64,000 bases of DNA from the NCBI GenBank assembly GCA_001818235.1, contig MHJY01000005.1, positions 19,277 through 83,276 of the forward strand. Reading direction: 5' to 3'. Below are positions 3,554 through 64,000 of the stretch, piece by piece; positions within the stretch are counted from its first letter, which is position 1, and each line of letters begins with the position of its first letter. Source of the stretch: Candidatus Jacksonbacteria bacterium RIFOXYB2_FULL_44_15. GTDB lineage: Bacteria > Patescibacteriota > Patescibacteriia > UBA9629. A program made the translations under genes and the position numbers. The notes below the pieces were generated by a model. The model was not told the origin of the DNA. It ran no database searches and was given only the letters and a program-made list of their open reading frames with translations.

Positions 3554-4621
3554 TTATTTTACGACCACATAATGCAAATACTCGACCGTTTTTTTTGCTT
3601 TATAATTGCGGTTTTCCGACGTGTCCGCTTTAAAACGATTATACTCTTTTGTAAAATGACCATACTTGCCCCTTAGGCTCATTATTTCCTTGATATCGTC
3701 CAAGGACATTAAGCCCTCATTGTTGTAGCTTAAAAAGATATATTTTACTTTTGCTTTTAAAATTAAATTTGTGAAAGCTTTTTTTACTTTTGTTCTTGAA
3801 CAATAAAGAGATTTTTGCTTTTCATACTCTCGTAACCCCGTTTTACCGTGGATTTTCGGATTGTCATACTTAGCCACTGTTTCTAATAAATGATAATTTG
3901 TTGCATATTGGCGGTGATTATATGGTGGGTCAAGATACAGAATATCGCCAGCGACCTTGCTTGCAAGTTCGTTGATATCCTCGTTGAATACTTGGTGCTT
4001 TTGGTCGTTTATTATCAGCTCTGCCGGTTTTAACACTAAGGGTGTTTGTGCCGTTTTTTTTAATTGTTTCAAAAATGCACCGTAGACCGAGGCGGTGTTT
4101 GCTCGCTTATCAATCGTTTCAATAAGCGTAGCCAAGAGAAAATAATACTCATTATTAGTAATCAACTTTTCTTTTTTCCACTTTTCAATTTCCGTTCTTA
4201 TCGCATCGCACCTTTTTCCATTTTCATCTGAAAAATATTGTCGTTGAAATTCCTTATTTTGCGTTCCACCCAAACAATAATTTTTGAATATAAACCCCTT
4301 TATTCCTTTAAGATTTGAAAGGTAATCACAAATAAAGTTTTTCCTCTCGGCAATTTCAATATTTTTCAGTTTTGGTAAAATTTTTATTAATTGCTGAAAA
4401 TTTAGATGTTCGTGGTTTTCAATGTACTGTTTATTGAGAACGAAACTATAATACTGAATATCGTTGGCAATAACCGTATATCCTTTCTTTTTGAAATAAG
4501 AGCCGACAATACCGGTTCCAGCAAATAAATCGCAAAAAACATGACAGTTTTTATCAATCACTTTACTTATTGATTCATCTAAAAATTCTAATAATGATAA
4601 TTTACTGCCGATATAGTTCAT
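3554..4621 (-). CDS. D12-class (Dam-like) N6-adenine DNA methyltransferase
   Basis: N-terminal MNYIGSK...FAGTG (motif I) and LYLDPPYNHRQY (motif IV, DPPY) in alpha-class order. Confidence 0.8.
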   Translation of the reverse strand: MNYIGSKLSLLEFLDESISKVIDKNCHVFCDLFAGTGIVGSYFKKKGYTVIANDIQYYSFVLNKQYIENHEHLNFQQLIKILPKLKNIEIAERKNFICDYLSNLKGIKGFIFKNYCLGGTQNKEFQRQYFSDENGKRCDAIRTEIEKWKKEKLITNNEYYFLLATLIETIDKRANTASVYGAFLKQLKKTAQTPLVLKPAELIINDQKHQVFNEDINELASKVAGDILYLDPPYNHRQYATNYHLLETVAKYDNPKIHGKTGLREYEKQKSLYCSRTKVKKAFTNLILKAKVKYIFLSYNNEGLMSLDDIKEIMSLRGKYGHFTKEYNRFKADTSENRNYKAKKTVEYLHYVVVK

Positions 4622-5796: not shown

Positions 5797-6426
5797 TTAG
5801 TTTTTAAAAATTAAAATATATTCGTGTTTAAAAATATAGTAATCGCTTGATAATGCTCTGTATTTCCAAATAGCTTCCTTGTTTTGTTTAGCTCGATTAC
5901 CCTCCATATTCTTAATTATAATACTTTTTAGAGTAAGCCCCAATTTTTGTGCTTCATTCAAACAATAAAATCCCAATGGGATCCATTTCCCTTGTGTATA
6001 TTTGTCGCCTATGACTATCGTCAAATATCTATTCTTCTCTAGCAAATCAAGCGTATTGCTGATTACAAGCGAAAATCCATTGAGAAAATCCCGCAAAGAT
6101 TTTGTGTTAGACAAATCCTTTTCGTGATTACTGAATTTGATAATGTTTGCATATGGTGGGTGTAAAATTGCCAGTTGTATATTTTTCTTTTTTTTGCGGT
6201 TTAGAATTTCGGTGATATTCGAAAAAGTATTTTTATCTGTACTATCACCCGCAACAAGTTCTGCAAAATAATTTTTATTATCTACGTTACTTTTAATGTG
6301 CTTTATCAGTTCTGGCTGAATATCAACTCCGATAAAATGCCTGCTCAAACTCTCCGCCTCATAGGCCGTTGTCCCACTACCTACAAATGGATCAAAAACA
6401 ACATCATTTCTTTTTGTATATCTCAA
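5797..6426 (-). CDS. pfam01555-like N4/N6 DNA methyltransferase with permuted motif order (X-I...IV-VIII); TTG start as tracked
   Basis: DPFVGSGTT (motif I) comes at residues 12-20. NIQLAILHPPY (motif IV) comes about 70 aa later. IIIKNMEGN...EAIWKY lies near the C-terminus. A further 67 in-frame codons upstream (to a stop at 6625-6627) encode the motif-X-like peptide HGNFIPQIPRQLI but contain no ATG/GTG/TTG. Confidence 0.6.
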   Translation of the reverse strand: MRYTKRNDVVFDPFVGSGTTAYEAESLSRHFIGVDIQPELIKHIKSNVDNKNYFAELVAGDSTDKNTFSNITEILNRKKKKNIQLAILHPPYANIIKFSNHEKDLSNTKSLRDFLNGFSLVISNTLDLLEKNRYLTIVIGDKYTQGKWIPLGFYCLNEAQKLGLTLKSIIIKNMEGNRAKQNKEAIWKYRALSSDYYIFKHEYILIFKN

Positions 6427-6842
6427 AATTAATTGTCGTGGAATTTGTGGAATAAAATTACCATGATAAAAACCATCATGCTTTCCAGATTTATCGCGTT
6501 CCGGAATAATCCAAAGACTATCGGTCCAAATTTCTGATTCTTTCCAATTATTTAGATTTAGATCATTAAAAATTGGTATATTTTTTTTAGCTCCAGCAAT
6601 TCTGTCGGGCTGGTTTATTCTTGGTTATTATTTTTTAGGAAAAGCGAAGTAAATCTGCTCTCTTTATTTTCCGTCAGGAGCGGTCATTTTCAAGTGTACG
6701 ATTTTTTCGTACACTTGGCTTCCTTCATTTTTCAATTTCCAGTCTTGCTTTTTTAGCTGCAAACCCGCCTCCAGGAGATTCTAATTTCAGTTGTCCTCCT
6801 TTTTGGGACAACTTGTTTTTTTCAACACAGTCAAAATTTAAG

Positions 6843-56022: not shown

Positions 56023-56871
56023 CTATAATGATTTAGATTTTTTTGTCTGCAATCTTTTTTTATCTATGCGTTCCAATTGTTTTATTTCTTTTTTGACCGC
56101 TCTAATGTGTTTTTCTGCCGGTATATTTTCTGGTGTTATCCCGCCAATTTCTTTAATGGTTTGTCTTACTTTACCGCCAACCATAAAATGAGTTTGCGAA
56201 GCTGAATAGTCTCCTTGTATTTTATTTTTTCTTAATTTTTCATCAGTCTGTGTAATACGAAACAAATTTGCCGCCAATTCGGTAGAGCCAGCTCTGTCTA
56301 ATAACTCGCCTTTCTTTATTCCTTTTTTTTGCTCAATATCTGTCAATGGCATTCCGTAAAGACCTTTATAGCCAGCATTATTAAACAAACCAAACTTTGT
56401 TACGCCAGCTTGTTTAGCTGTTGAAAAAAGCTTTTTGTTGTGGTTGGATACCTCGTTGCGGATGAATAGTCTTTTTGAAGTATCTGGCAATTGCTCATAA
56501 ATCTCCTGTTTTCTTGTTTGGATGGCAAAATATGTTTGCGCCAGAGCTATTTCCGGTTTATTAGGGTCTCCATTTTGGGCTATCAAATAGCAAGCATATC
56601 GGTCTAATTTGTAATTTTTGATCTCTCTGATCGTATTTGAGCCAATTTCGACCATTTTAACCGTTCGGTTAAAATGGTTATCCACAGCCTGACCGCTATT
56701 TATACAGGCGCGAGCCGCTCTCGCAATCACTTCTTCTGCCTTTTGCCAATTTCCATATCCCAATAAAGGCATTAGTTCACGCGCCTCCCAATACTCAATC
56801 CCGTTTTCATCAATTTTTTTAATGCCCTCAAAATTTTTATGAGGAGCAGAGGGTATTATTGCTTTAGTCAT
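56023..56871 (-). CDS. dinD: DinD-like (DNA-damage-inducible protein D family) protein
   Basis: ENGIEYWEARELMPLLGYGNWQKAEEVIARAARAC...RYACYLIAQNGDPNKPEIALAQTYFAIQTRKQE matches my recollection of the DinD family. Start at MTKAII. Confidence 0.55.
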   Translation of the reverse strand: MTKAIIPSAPHKNFEGIKKIDENGIEYWEARELMPLLGYGNWQKAEEVIARAARACINSGQAVDNHFNRTVKMVEIGSNTIREIKNYKLDRYACYLIAQNGDPNKPEIALAQTYFAIQTRKQEIYEQLPDTSKRLFIRNEVSNHNKKLFSTAKQAGVTKFGLFNNAGYKGLYGMPLTDIEQKKGIKKGELLDRAGSTELAANLFRITQTDEKLRKNKIQGDYSASQTHFMVGGKVRQTIKEIGGITPENIPAEKHIRAVKKEIKQLERIDKKRLQTKKSKSL

Positions 56872-62304: not shown

Positions 62305-62436
62305 TACTCATCAGCTTACTCGATAATGGCGGATTTGACAATGGGGAGGATGGCGCATTACTCGCCTCACCGCTTGACATTATCAGTTATATATTTTGAA
62401 TAAAGCGAGCTTTGGTGATTGTGGATAAGGCTACTT

Positions 62437-62465
62437 TTGATTTTCGGTGGATTTTCGGGTATAAT
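62437..62465 (+). promoter_or_regulatory. Sigma-70-like promoter (TTGATT-17 nt-TATAAT) for the lexA-MTase gene. The spacer contains a direct repeat GATTTTCGG x2. The palindrome TAACTT-acta-AAGTTA at 62504-62519 is a candidate operator.
   Basis: Sequence motifs only. Confidence 0.4.
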
Positions 62466-62526
62466 AAATTCAATATATCATTACTATTTTTTTAGTCAAT
62501 AAATAACTTACTAAAGTTACCCACAT

Positions 62527-64000
62527 ATGCACACACCCACTAAAAAACAAAAACAAATTTTAGATTTCATCACCTCTTACATAAACAAGCATGGCATATC
62601 CCCTACCATAGAGGAAATGTCTAAACACTTCAAACGTGCAGTTGGTACGATTCATGAACACGTAGAAGAATGCGTAAAAAAAGGATGCATTAAAAAAAAT
62701 AGTAATTCTTCGCGCGGCATTGAATTATACAAACAATTCGAAATGATAAAAATTCCGTTGTTGGGCACTATTACCGCCGGCCAACCCATCGAAGCAGTAC
62801 AGGAAAAAGAAACAATCGCCATCGCTAAAGATCGATTGCCGCATTCTGGCAGCTTTTTTGCTTTAAAAGTTACTGGCGATAGTATGATTGAAGAAAATAT
62901 TGCAGATGGTGATTATGTAATTGTAAAACAACAAACAACGGCCGAAAATGGGCAAAAGATTGTGGCACTTATAAACGATAATGATGCAACTTTAAAAAAA
63001 TTTTATAGAGAAAATAACAATATACGATTACAACCTGCAAATCAAAAATTTCAGCCTATTTTTGTTAAACCAGAAAATTTTAAAATCCAGGGTGTCGTTG
63101 TAGATATAATTAAAAACACAAAATTTCAACCAAATGTTATTTTTAAAAAGGAAGAAACCACAGCAACCAAAACCAAAGGGTCCTATAATTTTGAGGATAT
63201 CAAAAGGCTACTAGGCAAACCATATTTTGAAACAGACAATTGTTTTATTTATAACGTGGATTGTTTAAGTGCGATGAAGAAAATTGAAAGAGAAGCCATC
63301 GACCTAACAGTTACAAGTCCTCCGTATAATATCGGAAAGGAATATGAAACCGATAAACCTATACAAGAATATATAGATTGGTGCAAACAATGGATGAATG
63401 AAGTATACGGAATCACAAAACAAAATGGCTCGTTCTGGCTAAATTTAGGTTATTTTGAATTTCCTCAAAAAGCAAAAGCCCTCCCCATTACCTATCTATT
63501 ATGGGATAAAACTCCATTTTATTTAATTCAAGAAGTTGTCTGGAATTATGGCGCCGGAGTGGCAGCGAAGAAATTTTTATCTCCACGCAATGAAAAATTT
63601 CTTTGGTACGTGAAAAATCGAGAAAATTATTTATTTAATCTTGATAATATAAGAGATAAAAATGTTAAATATCCCAACCAAAAGAAAAATGGCAGACTAA
63701 GATGTAATCCGCTTGGCAAAAATCCCTCAGATGTGTGGCAGATACAAAAAGTTACATCTGGTAAAGATAGGAGCTCAAAAGAAAGAACTGAACACCCAGC
63801 ACAGTTTCCCGAGGCTTTAATTGATAGGATCATTTTAGCATCGAGTAACAAAAAAGAAGTCATATTAGACCCCTTCTTAGGTTCTGGCACTTCTGCCATC
63901 TCTGCTTTAAAGAATGAAAGAAAGATTATTGGCTTTGAAATTTCAAAAAAATATTGTGGGATCGCCGAACAAAGAATAATAAAGTTACTAGAAAATCAGA
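62527..64000 (+). CDS. LexA-like repressor (wHTH + S24 autopeptidase) fused in frame to a pfam01555-type SPPY (likely N4-cytosine) DNA methyltransferase; 3'-partial (runs off window)
   Basis: ATG 62527. No stop through 64000 (491 codons, checked by hand). It is absent from the ORF track because it is open-ended. The LexA NTD is QKQILDFI...HGISPTIEEM...SRGIELY, with cleavage site LLGTITAGQPI and catalytic VTGDSM...ATLKKF. The MTase has TVTSPPYNIG (motif IV) and ILDPFLGSGTSA (motif I). Confidence 0.75.
   Translation, partial: MHTPTKKQKQILDFITSYINKHGISPTIEEMSKHFKRAVGTIHEHVEECVKKGCIKKNSNSSRGIELYKQFEMIKIPLLGTITAGQPIEAVQEKETIAIAKDRLPHSGSFFALKVTGDSMIEENIADGDYVIVKQQTTAENGQKIVALINDNDATLKKFYRENNNIRLQPANQKFQPIFVKPENFKIQGVVVDIIKNTKFQPNVIFKKEETTATKTKGSYNFEDIKRLLGKPYFETDNCFIYNVDCLSAMKKIEREAIDLTVTSPPYNIGKEYETDKPIQEYIDWCKQWMNEVYGITKQNGSFWLNLGYFEFPQKAKALPITYLLWDKTPFYLIQEVVWNYGAGVAAKKFLSPRNEKFLWYVKNRENYLFNLDNIRDKNVKYPNQKKNGRLRCNPLGKNPSDVWQIQKVTSGKDRSSKERTEHPAQFPEALIDRIILASSNKKEVILDPFLGSGTSAISALKNERKIIGFEISKKYCGIAEQRIIKLLENQ

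What the first reader, a model, noticed from the sequence alone, without database searches (positions are those of the whole stretch)
62437..64000. Complete LexA repressor fused in frame to an SPPY-type DNA methyltransferase
Seen in sequence. The ORF runs from ATG 62527 to the window end with no stop (491 codons, translated by hand). It is not in the supplied track because it is open-ended, and the 63627-63899 minus ORF is antisense to it. Residues 1-200 make a textbook LexA. The winged-HTH N-terminus is ...QILDFITSYINKHGISPTIEEMSKHF...SRGIELY. The Ala-Gly self-cleavage site is LLGTITAGQPI. The S24 catalytic Ser is in VTGDSM and the Lys in ATLKKF. After a Lys/Thr-rich linker of about 35 aa comes a beta-class MTase. 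It has motif IV TVTSPPYNIG, then FPEALIDRIILASS, then motif I VILDPFLGSGTSA. Established knowledge. LexA autocleaves at A-G on RecA* activation. SPPY is characteristic of N4-cytosine MTases. The pfam01555 order is IV before I. Inference. This could be an SOS-coupled DNA methyltransferase, for example a modification or R-M module whose activity or targeting changes when LexA is cleaved. It could also be an MTase autoregulated through a LexA-type HTH. The gene is clearly more AT-rich than the ABC-F gene before it, which suggests acquisition. The upstream region has a sigma-70-like promoter (TTGATT-17-TATAAT, 62437-62465). It also has a direct repeat GATTTTCGG x2 and a Cheo-box-like palindrome TAACTT-N4-AAGTTA (62504-62519), either of which could serve as operator. 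A DinD-like gene lies 6 kb upstream at 56023-56871, and DinD is SOS-regulated in E. coli.
Basis: partly seen in the sequence, partly recalled or inferred. Interest (0 to 1): 0.85.

Follow-up and report, generated by a model that had tools for sequence, protein, structure and literature searches.

The report
LexA repressor fused to restriction-modification methylase
A complete DNA-damage sensor protein (LexA) is fused to the protective methylase of a ScaI-type restriction-modification system, and the same design recurs in many candidate-phyla-radiation (CPR, also called Patescibacteria) bacteria, which suggests these defence systems sense DNA breaks and adjust self-protection.

Summary
Window 62527-64000 is one open frame of 491 codons, and it ends 7 codons beyond the window (498 aa). 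It encodes a full LexA joined by a ~22-aa linker to a beta-class SPPY DNA methyltransferase. LexA scores 185.8 bits on TIGR00498 against a cutoff of 110.95, with the A84-G85 cleavage site, Ser119 and Lys157 intact. The DNA is identical in two public Candidatus Jacksonbacteria assemblies, whose annotation calls only the methylase half. Five orthologues (62-85% identity) have the same architecture. The gene belongs to a low-GC mobile Type II cassette: LexA-M, then a convergent C-protein gene and a ScaI-family endonuclease gene. The fusion is not unique. Of the 80 best LexA-like loci in species-representative genomes, 76 are LexA-methylase fusions covering all methylase classes, and many have a recognisable restriction endonuclease next door. 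Their promoters share an 11-bp-period tandem repeat over the -35/spacer (78/83 against 9/1498 background). The repeat sequence co-varies with the LexA recognition helix. In the window it is GATTTTCGG x2 (62439-62458). Best reading: an autorepressed methylase that is induced through RecA-triggered LexA cleavage. I found no description of this in the literature I could reach. The function is inferred, not shown.

The parts
62390..62436 (+). Left edge of the conserved low-GC R-M cassette. It contains a perfect DnaA-box 9-mer TGTGGATAA (62420-62428) and a C-box-half-like TTTGAATAA (62395-62403).
   Evidence: Similarity to orthologue L008 starts at L001 9252, which equals window 62390. The DnaA-box 9-mer occurs in 54/83 related promoters against 4/1498 background segments.
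62437..62465 (+). Forward promoter of the fusion gene: TTGATT (-35), 17-nt spacer, TATAAT (-10).
   Evidence: Promoter scan gives 10 of 12 matches. The same geometry is seen across the family.
62439..62458 (+). Putative LexA operator: tandem direct repeat GATTTTCGG-tg-GATTTTCGG with an 11-bp period, overlapping the -35 hexamer and the spacer.
   Evidence: It is the only perfect copy in the 64-kb window. Equivalent repeats occur in 78/83 promoters against 9/1498 background, with the period sharply peaked at 11. The repeat class co-varies with recognition-helix residues.
62472..62499 (-). Reverse promoter facing the forward one: TTGACT (62499-62494), 16-nt spacer, TG, TATATT (62477-62472).
   Evidence: Promoter scan gives 10 of 12 matches plus an extended-10 TG. 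A reverse TTGAC-N17-20-TAnnnT occurs in 56/83 related promoters against 4/1487 background.
62504..62519 (+). Palindrome TAACTT-ACTA-AAGTTA in the 5' leader. No role could be assigned.
   Evidence: Present in the window. Only partly kept in L008 (TAACT-N6-AGTTA) and absent elsewhere.
62527..64000 (+). LexA-MTase fusion ORF, 491 of its 498 codons. The stop codon lies 24 nt beyond the window end.
62533..62718 (+). LexA winged-HTH DNA-binding domain (aa 3-64), with recognition helix AVGTIHEHVEECVKKG.
   Evidence: PF01726, E=1e-10. Helix classes are tabulated.
62755..63102 (+). S24 autopeptidase and dimerisation domain (aa 77-192). Cleavage bond A84|G85 is at 62776-62781, Ser119 at 62881-62883, Lys157 at 62995-62997.
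   Evidence: PF00717, E=2.4e-31. These residues are invariant in the 6 orthologues and in the 76 other fusions.
63118..63183 (+). Variable Lys/Thr-rich linker (aa 198-219), which is the fusion junction.
   Evidence: It is the only poorly conserved stretch in alignment A1. Unfused homologues P0007 and P0015 start at the equivalent of aa ~220. The L094/L056 breakpoint lies exactly here.
63184..64000 (+). Beta-class DNA methyltransferase (aa 220-491 in the window). Motif IV SPPY is at 63316-63327 and motif I FLGSGT at 63874-63891.
   Evidence: PF01555, E=2.7e-57, covering 1-220 of 221 model positions. About 70% identical to unfused MTases of ScaI-type cassettes.

Best explanation
The gene encodes a bifunctional protein: the modification methylase of a mobile, C-protein-controlled, ScaI-family Type II restriction-modification cassette, carrying a complete host-type LexA repressor at its N-terminus. 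The proposed mechanism has three steps. (1) As a dimer held by the S24 domain, the protein binds the tandem GATTTTCGG repeats over the -35/spacer of its own promoter. This sets a low, self-limiting methylase level after an initial unrepressed burst on entering a naive cell. (2) When single-stranded DNA and RecA filaments form, LexA-type self-cleavage at A84|G85 removes the DNA-binding domain. Such filaments would arise, for example, after the cassette's own endonuclease cuts under-methylated chromosomal sites. (3) The promoter is then derepressed and the methylase-to-endonuclease ratio rises, which would act as a Type II form of damage-induced restriction alleviation. What is shown here: the fusion itself, the R-M context, the family-wide recurrence, operator conservation and position, helix-operator co-variation, and invariance of the catalytic residues. 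What is inferred: DNA binding, RecA-stimulated cleavage, derepression, the fate of the S24-MTase fragment, and m4C methylation of AGTACT.
For: Domains and catalytic residues are intact. The same LexA-M -> <- R(ScaI)-C cassette sits in six unrelated chromosomal contexts. The unfused ancestor-type cassette has the same layout. R is a full-length RE_ScaI match (4.9e-72), and C-boxes lie upstream of C. 76 of the 80 best LexA-like loci in species representatives are LexA-MTase fusions: N6_N4 64, D12 10, C5 9, Eco57I/TaqI-like 2. A85-G86, S120 and K157 are invariant in all of them. In 56 of 69 loci the downstream gene is convergent, and many of these genes are recognisable REases such as TaqI, Tsp45I, HindIII, BglII, MamI, Bsp6I, MutH-like and HNH. 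The period-11 tandem repeat abuts the -10 in 78/83 promoters against 9/1498 background. Repeat class partitions with the recognition helix: CGG with ST[IV]H[QE]H in 41/41, TTCTA with STAH[FY]H in 28/28. The same operator precedes genuine host lexA genes, including one heading a lexA-rhuM-uvrA string. Direct-repeat LexA boxes with 11-bp spacing are established for Alphaproteobacteria (GTTC-N7-GTTC, PMC8565304). MTases that autorepress through an N-terminal HTH, and SOS induction by R-M imbalance, are both established (PMC3874152).
Against: There is no experimental evidence of any kind. Helix-operator co-variation could partly reflect shared ancestry of clades. Whether this genome has recA, another lexA or further operators could not be examined. 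After cleavage the S24-MTase fragment might be degraded instead of persisting, which would reverse the physiological outcome. In this genome an IS sits between C and R, so R may be silent and the feedback loop moot here. An unfused lexA with the identical module exists (L094), so physical fusion is not strictly required for regulation. AGTACT is not clearly avoided in the window (3 observed against 4.4 expected).
Confidence: 0.6

Rival explanations
1. The fusion protein also acts as the cell's SOS repressor, either as the sole LexA or as a co-repressor. A mobile R-M cassette would then control, or become entangled with, the host DNA-damage regulon. Losing the cassette would derepress SOS, which adds a layer of addiction. 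This reading is compatible with the best explanation.
For: Fused LexA domains are interleaved with stand-alone CPR LexAs and are up to 84-100% identical to them. They share operator classes with genuine host lexA genes. Some genomes hold two fusions (L030/L056, L078/L079, L069/L075). No second LexA lies in the 64-kb window.
Against: Only one perfect operator copy exists in the 64 kb held. No operators were seen near other genes in 638 kb of related loci. Stand-alone lexA genes in repair neighbourhoods do exist in CPR. The rest of this genome was not available.
Confidence: 0.2
2. The LexA module serves only as a DNA-binding and dimerisation domain for constitutive autorepression of M, like the N-terminal HTH of M.SsoII or M.EcoRII. 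Self-cleavage would play no physiological role.
For: HTH-MTase autorepression is a known solution to the problem of establishing an R-M system in a new cell (PMC3874152). Operator position fits simple autorepression.
Against: The Ala-Gly bond and the Ser/Lys dyad are strictly invariant in 82 fusions whose LexA halves have diverged to about 50% identity. That is hard to explain without selection for cleavage.
Confidence: 0.1
3. Cleavage destabilises the methylase, because the S24-MTase fragment is degraded as LexA fragments are in E. coli. DNA damage or phage attack would then tip the balance towards the endonuclease and kill the cell, giving an abortive-infection or suicide outcome.
For: The predicted N-terminal fragment ends in ...TITA (IAA in most relatives), which resembles the ClpX-recognised VAA end of cleaved E. 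coli LexA (recalled knowledge). Two cassettes sit beside CBASS genes in defence islands.
Against: Cleavage simultaneously derepresses synthesis of new full-length protein. Nothing indicates a degradation signal on the C-terminal fragment. A stable methylation mark outlasts loss of the enzyme.
Confidence: 0.08
4. The fusion is an assembly or annotation artefact and is really two genes.
For: The public records annotate only a 294-aa methylase starting from an ATT codon.
Against: The DNA is identical in two assemblies with no stop or frameshift. An uninterrupted frame is kept in 5 orthologues and 76 further fusions.
Confidence: 0.01

Closest known systems
LexA SOS repressor (TIGR00498; PF01726 + PF00717), e.g. 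Thermotoga maritima LexA 3k2z and E. coli LexA 1jhh
   Same: Full-length match above the equivalog cutoff. It has the winged HTH, the Ala-Gly cleavage bond, the Ser/Lys dyad, and an operator in its own promoter.
   Different: It carries a ~300-aa DNA methyltransferase after the S24 domain. It sits on a mobile R-M cassette and not in a repair locus.
Alphaproteobacterial direct-repeat LexA box GTTC-N7-GTTC (PMC8565304 introduction)
   Same: A tandem, not palindromic, half-site arrangement with an 11-bp period. Orthologues L006 and L010 literally carry GTTC-N7-GTTC.
   Different: The lineage is Patescibacteria. The half-site varies (TTTCGG, TTCTA, TTCGA) and tracks the recognition helix. In the window it is TTTC-N7-TTTC within GATTTTCGG.
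Methyltransferases that autorepress through an N-terminal HTH: M.EcoRII, M.SsoII, M.Ecl18kI, M.ScrFI (PMC3874152)
   Same: An N-terminal DNA-binding domain on the R-M methylase binds an operator overlapping the M promoter and limits M synthesis.
   Different: Those are short HTH extensions on C5 MTases with no protease or sensor domain. Here a whole self-cleaving LexA is fused, and it is attached to every MTase class.
C-protein-controlled Type II R-M systems, and the ScaI system (PF09569 endonuclease family)
   Same: The R side of the cassette is standard: a small HTH_3 C gene with palindromic C-boxes directly upstream of a ScaI-family endonuclease gene, convergent with M. The unfused cassette (L011) is the same.
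   Different: M control has been taken over by a fused LexA. In this genome an IS separates C from R.
Damage-induced restriction alleviation of Type I systems, i.e. ClpXP degradation of HsdR (PMC4231737, PMC12707154)
   Same: The proposed physiological logic is the same: lower self-restriction when DNA damage or repair creates unmodified sites.
   Different: The mechanism is entirely different (proteolysis of R against induction of M). It is described only for Type I systems, and the 2025 review never mentions LexA.
Convergent promoter loop of EcoRI (PM against PREV0) (PMC3874152)
   Same: The forward M promoter faces a reverse promoter, which could allow mutual interference.
   Different: Here the reverse -35 lies just upstream of the start codon and the two -10 boxes are a few nucleotides apart. 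No transcript data exist.

Membership tests
LexA (TIGR00498) | N-terminal winged-HTH LexA DNA-binding domain | tested here: met
   PF01726 over residues 3-64, E=1e-10. TIGR00498 scores 185.8 bits against a cutoff of 110.95.
LexA (TIGR00498) | S24 domain with an Ala-Gly scissile bond and a Ser/Lys catalytic dyad | tested here: met
   PF00717 over residues 77-192, E=2.4e-31. A84-G85, S119 and K157 are present and invariant in all 82 fusions.
LexA (TIGR00498) | Autoregulatory operator in its own promoter | tested here: met
   Met by comparative inference only. A tandem repeat overlaps the -35/spacer, is enriched 78/83 against 9/1498, co-varies with the recognition helix, and is shared with host lexA genes. 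No binding assay was done.
LexA (TIGR00498) | RecA*-stimulated self-cleavage and control of a DNA-damage regulon | not testable with these tools
   This needs biochemistry or genetics. The rest of the genome was not available for a regulon scan.
Beta-class N6/N4 DNA methyltransferase (PF01555) | Motif IV (D/S)PPY placed before motif I FxGxG, with full domain coverage | tested here: met
   SPPY at aa 264-267 and FLGSGT at aa 450-455. PF01555 covers 1-220 of 221 model positions, E=2.7e-57. M.RsrI and M.MboIIA are the structural relatives.
Beta-class N6/N4 DNA methyltransferase (PF01555) | Target base (m4C or m6A) and target sequence | not testable with these tools
   SPPY and the ScaI-family partner suggest m4C in AGTACT. 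However, the best sequence relatives include m6A enzymes, and NCBIfam adenine-MTase models score below their cutoffs.
Type II R-M system with C protein (ScaI type) | Cognate restriction endonuclease gene adjacent to M | tested here: met
   RE_ScaI PF09569, 4.9e-72, 1-192 of 192 positions. It is convergent and overlaps the M 3' end by 12 bp (L001 10874-11470). The same is true in all six fusion loci.
Type II R-M system with C protein (ScaI type) | Controller protein gene with C-box operators upstream of R | tested here: met
   An HTH_3 protein of 73 aa (7.5e-12). The palindrome ATATTCAAACTTTGAATAT plus TTGAATAT lies upstream of C. In this genome an IS separates C from R.
SsoII/EcoRII-type HTH-methyltransferases | Homologous short N-terminal HTH on a C5 MTase | tested here: not met
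   The N-terminal module is a complete LexA and the MTase is beta-class. The resemblance is one of logic, not of family membership.

The most novel reading that the evidence does not exclude
In Patescibacteria the SOS repressor, together with its promoter, tandem operator, DnaA box and reverse promoter, has become a portable sensor module. Type II R-M systems of every methylase class have captured it repeatedly. The R-M systems then read RecA-coated ssDNA, including breaks they cause themselves, and tune modification accordingly. In some small genomes these fusion proteins may be the only LexA, which would put the host DNA-damage response under the control of mobile defence cassettes.
Probability: 0.25. 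Interest if true: 0.9.

Novelty: new variant of a known kind. Interest (0 to 1): 0.72.

Why it matters
How Type II R-M systems avoid killing their own host after DNA damage, repair synthesis or transfer to a new cell is an old problem. Damage-induced restriction alleviation is understood only for Type I systems. A methylase physically fused to the universal RecA-filament sensor would be a direct, host-independent answer, and it would link two textbook systems, SOS and R-M. The fusion recurs with all methylase classes in at least 76 species-level CPR genomes. These organisms mostly lack CRISPR (recalled knowledge, not tested here) and appear to rely on R-M, so the fusion looks like a major regulatory strategy and not a curiosity. 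Public annotation hides it, with names such as 'modification methylase' and 'LexA, partial'. The idea is readily testable in E. coli by cleavage, EMSA, reporter and methylome assays. The helix-operator co-variation also offers a natural series for studying LexA specificity.

Tried and rejected
(1) An assembly artefact or hidden stop was rejected.
(2) The Cheo-box-like palindrome 62504-62519 as operator was rejected. It is not conserved beyond the closest orthologue and its sequence is unlike CGAAC-N4-GTTCG.
(3) A link to the 'DinD-like' gene was rejected. That gene has only a Bro-N domain and no operator.
(4) I looked for operators near R, C or neighbouring genes in 638 kb of related loci. None were convincing, and the recurrent in-gene hits are the conserved ENGQK coding sequence read on the opposite strand.
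(5) I tested whether a conserved divergent partner gene explains the reverse promoter. There is none: 57 different families, each in at most 2 loci.
(6) AGTACT avoidance in the window is not significant (3 against 4.4 expected).
(7) The operator is not directly upstream of uvrA or uvrB in a host repair locus. It is only at lexA, which heads the string.
(8) Ten full-text literature searches and two R-M reviews yielded no description of LexA-MTase fusions.
(9) The key Patescibacteria SOS paper (Sanchez-Osuna et al. 2017, pmid 28618189) is not held and could not be read.
(10) Structure prediction was not run, because the sequence-level evidence for both domains is already decisive.
Full report
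**Observation**

Window 62527-64000 is a single open frame of 491 codons. The window is part of Candidatus Jacksonbacteria contig MHKA01000047.1 (locus L001, where window coordinate = L001 coordinate + 53138). There the frame ends 7 codons later, giving a 498-aa protein. The DNA is base-for-base identical in a second assembly, MHJZ01000037.1.

The domain evidence is strong:
- Pfam finds LexA_DNA_bind (aa 3-64), Peptidase_S24 (77-192) and N6_N4_Mtase (258-481, 2.7e-57).
- The NCBIfam LexA equivalog model scores 185.8 bits against a cutoff of 110.95.
- The best solved relatives are T. maritima LexA (1.5e-33) and M.RsrI (about 1e-29).

The public records annotate only a 294-aa 'modification methylase' that starts at an ATT codon (window 63139). 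They leave the LexA half unannotated. That reflects how the gene was called and not a difference in sequence.

**The fusion is real and under selection**

Five further proteins (62-85% identity, 497-508 aa) have the same three-domain architecture. In the alignment, the A84-G85 bond, Ser119 (G-D/N-S-M), Lys157, SPPY and FLGSGT are all invariant. Only residues ~198-219 are variable. Unfused homologues begin at the position matching residue ~220, so this variable stretch is the fusion junction and linker.

**Context**

Just beyond the window end, a ScaI-family restriction endonuclease gene converges on the fusion gene and overlaps it by 12 bp (PF09569, 4.9e-72, full length). An HTH_3 C-protein gene lies upstream of the endonuclease gene and is preceded by palindromic C-boxes.

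The same three-gene cassette occurs in six unrelated chromosomal contexts, two of them beside CBASS genes. An unfused version with the same M -> <- R-C layout exists in Taylorbacteria.

The cassette is a low-GC island, 0.32-0.34 against 0.43-0.48 in the flanks. Its conserved left edge is at about window 62390. In this genome a host-like IS has inserted exactly at the C-R junction. The IS has 18-bp terminal inverted repeats and an ATTATAG target duplication.

**The fusion belongs to a large family**

Searching with the LexA half alone returned CPR LexAs at 50-65% identity, many of them carrying methylase domains. A scan of species-representative genomes with an alignment of LexA halves found at least 536 relatives.
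- Of the best 80 loci, 76 are ORFs of 460-888 aa (a few of them cut by contig ends).
- All 76 combine LexA_DNA_bind and Peptidase_S24 with a DNA methylase. The classes are N6_N4 (64), D12 (10), C5 (9) and Eco57I/TaqI-like (2).
- The Ala-Gly bond, the Ser and the Lys are invariant in all 76.
- The next gene downstream is convergent in 56 of 69 loci. Many of these genes are recognisable restriction endonucleases: TaqI 11, EndoVII/HNH types, Tsp45I, Bsp6I, MutH-like, HindIII, MamI, BglII and PD-(D/E)XK.

Stand-alone CPR LexAs are interleaved with the fused domains and are up to 84-100% identical to them. In one pair (L094 and L056) the DNA is identical through the promoter and LexA and diverges exactly at the LexA C-terminus. 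One continues as a stop codon followed by a new ORF, the other as a linker followed by a C5 MTase. The promoter-plus-LexA unit therefore behaves as a shuffled module.

**Operator**

The 110 nt upstream of 83 such genes are stereotyped.

| Element | Related promoters | Background segments |
|---|---|---|
| Tandem repeat TTC[GT][GA]-N6-TTC[GT][GA], 11-bp period, usually abutting the -10 | 78/83 | 9/1498 |
| Perfect DnaA-box 9-mer TGTGGATAA | 54/83 | 4/1498 |
| Reverse-strand TTGAC-N17-20-TAnnnT | 56/83 | 4/1487 |

Exact 6-mer direct repeats peak sharply at period 11, in 73 promoters.

The repeat class partitions with the LexA recognition helix:
- ...CGG repeats go with ST[IV]H[QE]H (41 of 41).
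- TTCTA repeats go with STAH[FY]H (28 of 28).
- Inverted TCGAAA repeats go with STAHYH or STIHFH (8 loci).

This argues that the LexA domain reads the repeats, with the caveat that the classes may follow clades. Direct-repeat LexA boxes with this spacing are established in Alphaproteobacteria (GTTC-N7-GTTC, PMC8565304), and orthologues L006 and L010 carry exactly that sequence.

In the window the operator is GATTTTCGG-tg-GATTTTCGG (62439-62458). It lies inside TTGATT-17-TATAAT (62437-62465) and is the only perfect copy in the 64 kb. The same operator type precedes genuine host lexA genes, including one that heads a lexA-rhuM-uvrA string next to uvrB. It is therefore most likely the SOS box of this lineage.

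**Other promoter features**

The reverse promoter usually has its -35 placed 4-6 nt before the ATG. In the window it is TTGACT-16-TG-TATATT, running from 62499 to 62472. The upstream neighbour gene is divergent in 61 of 72 loci but belongs to no conserved family. The reverse promoter therefore looks regulatory, comparable to the convergent PM/PREV0 loop of EcoRI (PMC3874152). Its role, and the role of the DnaA box, remain unexplained.

**Mechanism proposed**

The proposal is autorepression of M through the fused LexA, as in the known HTH-MTases (PMC3874152), made sensitive to RecA filaments by the intact self-cleavage module. R-M imbalance and post-segregational killing are known to induce SOS (PMC3874152). 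The circuit would therefore let the cassette sense its own autoimmune breaks and raise modification.

The closest physiological analogue is damage-induced restriction alleviation. That is described only for Type I systems and works by proteolysis or assembly failure (PMC4231737, PMC12707154). The 2025 review contains no mention of LexA.

Carrying its own sensor would make a mobile cassette independent of the host's LexA specificity. All of these steps are inference, and nothing here tests binding, cleavage or methylation.

**Rivals**

- The fusion may also act as the host SOS repressor. This is compatible with the main model and could not be tested without the rest of the genome.
- The LexA module may be only a binding and dimerisation domain. 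This is disfavoured by the invariant catalytic residues.
- Cleavage may destabilise M and cause suicide. This is possible.
- The fusion may be an artefact. This is excluded.

**Novelty**

The components are textbook, and the architecture is visible in databases under misleading names. I found no description of LexA-methylase fusions in ten full-text searches or in two R-M reviews. One relevant paper on the Patescibacteria SOS network (pmid 28618189) could not be read and may already define the operator. I rate this a new variant of a known kind: an HTH-autoregulated R-M methylase, here with a self-cleaving SOS sensor. It is of considerable interest because it is widespread and directly testable.

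Noticed in passing
window 62420-62428: A perfect DnaA-box 9-mer TGTGGATAA lies just upstream of the operator. The same 9-mer occurs in 54/83 LexA or LexA-MTase promoters against 4/1498 background segments. Its position and orientation vary, and it does not co-vary with the LexA helix class, which suggests a separate conserved factor (DnaA?) acts on these promoters.
   Followed up: partly
window 62472-62499 (minus strand): A near-consensus reverse promoter (TTGACT-16-TG-TATATT) faces the forward promoter. This is family-wide (56/83 against 4/1487), with the -35 usually 4-6 nt before the ATG. No Shine-Dalgarno sequence is visible upstream of most fusion genes. Upstream neighbours are divergent in 61/72 loci but unrelated to each other.
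   Followed up: partly
window 63139 onward; L001 9389-10885: GenBank records MHKA01000047 and MHJZ01000037 annotate only a 294-aa methylase starting at an ATT codon and leave the LexA half unannotated. Other family members are named 'transcriptional repressor LexA, partial'. The architecture is systematically hidden by annotation.
   Followed up: yes
L001 11480-12584 (beyond the window end): An IS with a DDE transposase (18-bp inverted repeats, ATTATAG target duplication, GC 0.44 like the host) is inserted exactly between the C gene and the ScaI-family R gene. It probably uncouples R from C control in this genome.
   Followed up: partly
L097 4001-5412: A stand-alone CPR lexA (211 aa, conserved tail KKLNWMK, same DnaA box and TTTCGG tandem operator) is followed 5 nt later by a DpnI-like methyl-directed restriction endonuclease gene. 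This is a second kind of LexA-restriction linkage.
   Followed up: no
L094 against L056, around position 4600: The DNA is identical through the promoter and LexA, then diverges exactly at the LexA C-terminus. One continues as a stop plus a new ORF, the other as a linker plus a C5 methylase. This is direct evidence that the promoter-LexA unit is shuffled as a module.
   Followed up: yes
L095 438-8195: A genuine host lexA heads a lexA-rhuM-uvrA string, with uvrB 1.4 kb upstream. The tandem operator is found only at lexA. A 23-nt perfect palindrome GGAACAGAACAATGTTCTGTTCC lies between lexA and rhuM.
   Followed up: partly
L009 62-1932; L010 712-2419: CBASS genes (SMODS/CD-NTase, Cap15-like) lie directly beside the LexA-M/ScaI cassette in two loci, which suggests defence-island residence.
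   Followed up: no
Its neighbour weakly matches nucleoside 2-deoxyribosyltransferase (9.4e-5, below the cutoff). There is no LexA operator upstream, and a DnaA-box 9-mer lies inside the gene at 56678.
   Followed up: partly
window 6319-6498 (minus strand); window 3840-3859: There is a weak second PF01555-like tblastn match (E=9e-7, 60 aa), and an operator-like site with 3 mismatches (GTTTTACCGTGGATTTTCGG).
   Followed up: no
window 62395-62403; L011 4970-5000: TTTGAATAA at the cassette edge resembles the C-box half TTTGAATAT found upstream of the C gene. In the unfused cassette, the M promoter (TATACTATAGTTATCAA) resembles the C promoter (TATACTACAGTTATCAA). C protein may therefore control M where LexA is absent.
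   Followed up: no
protein P0123: A 262-aa CPR protein combines LexA with a C-terminal UVR domain, which is another LexA fusion architecture.
   Followed up: no
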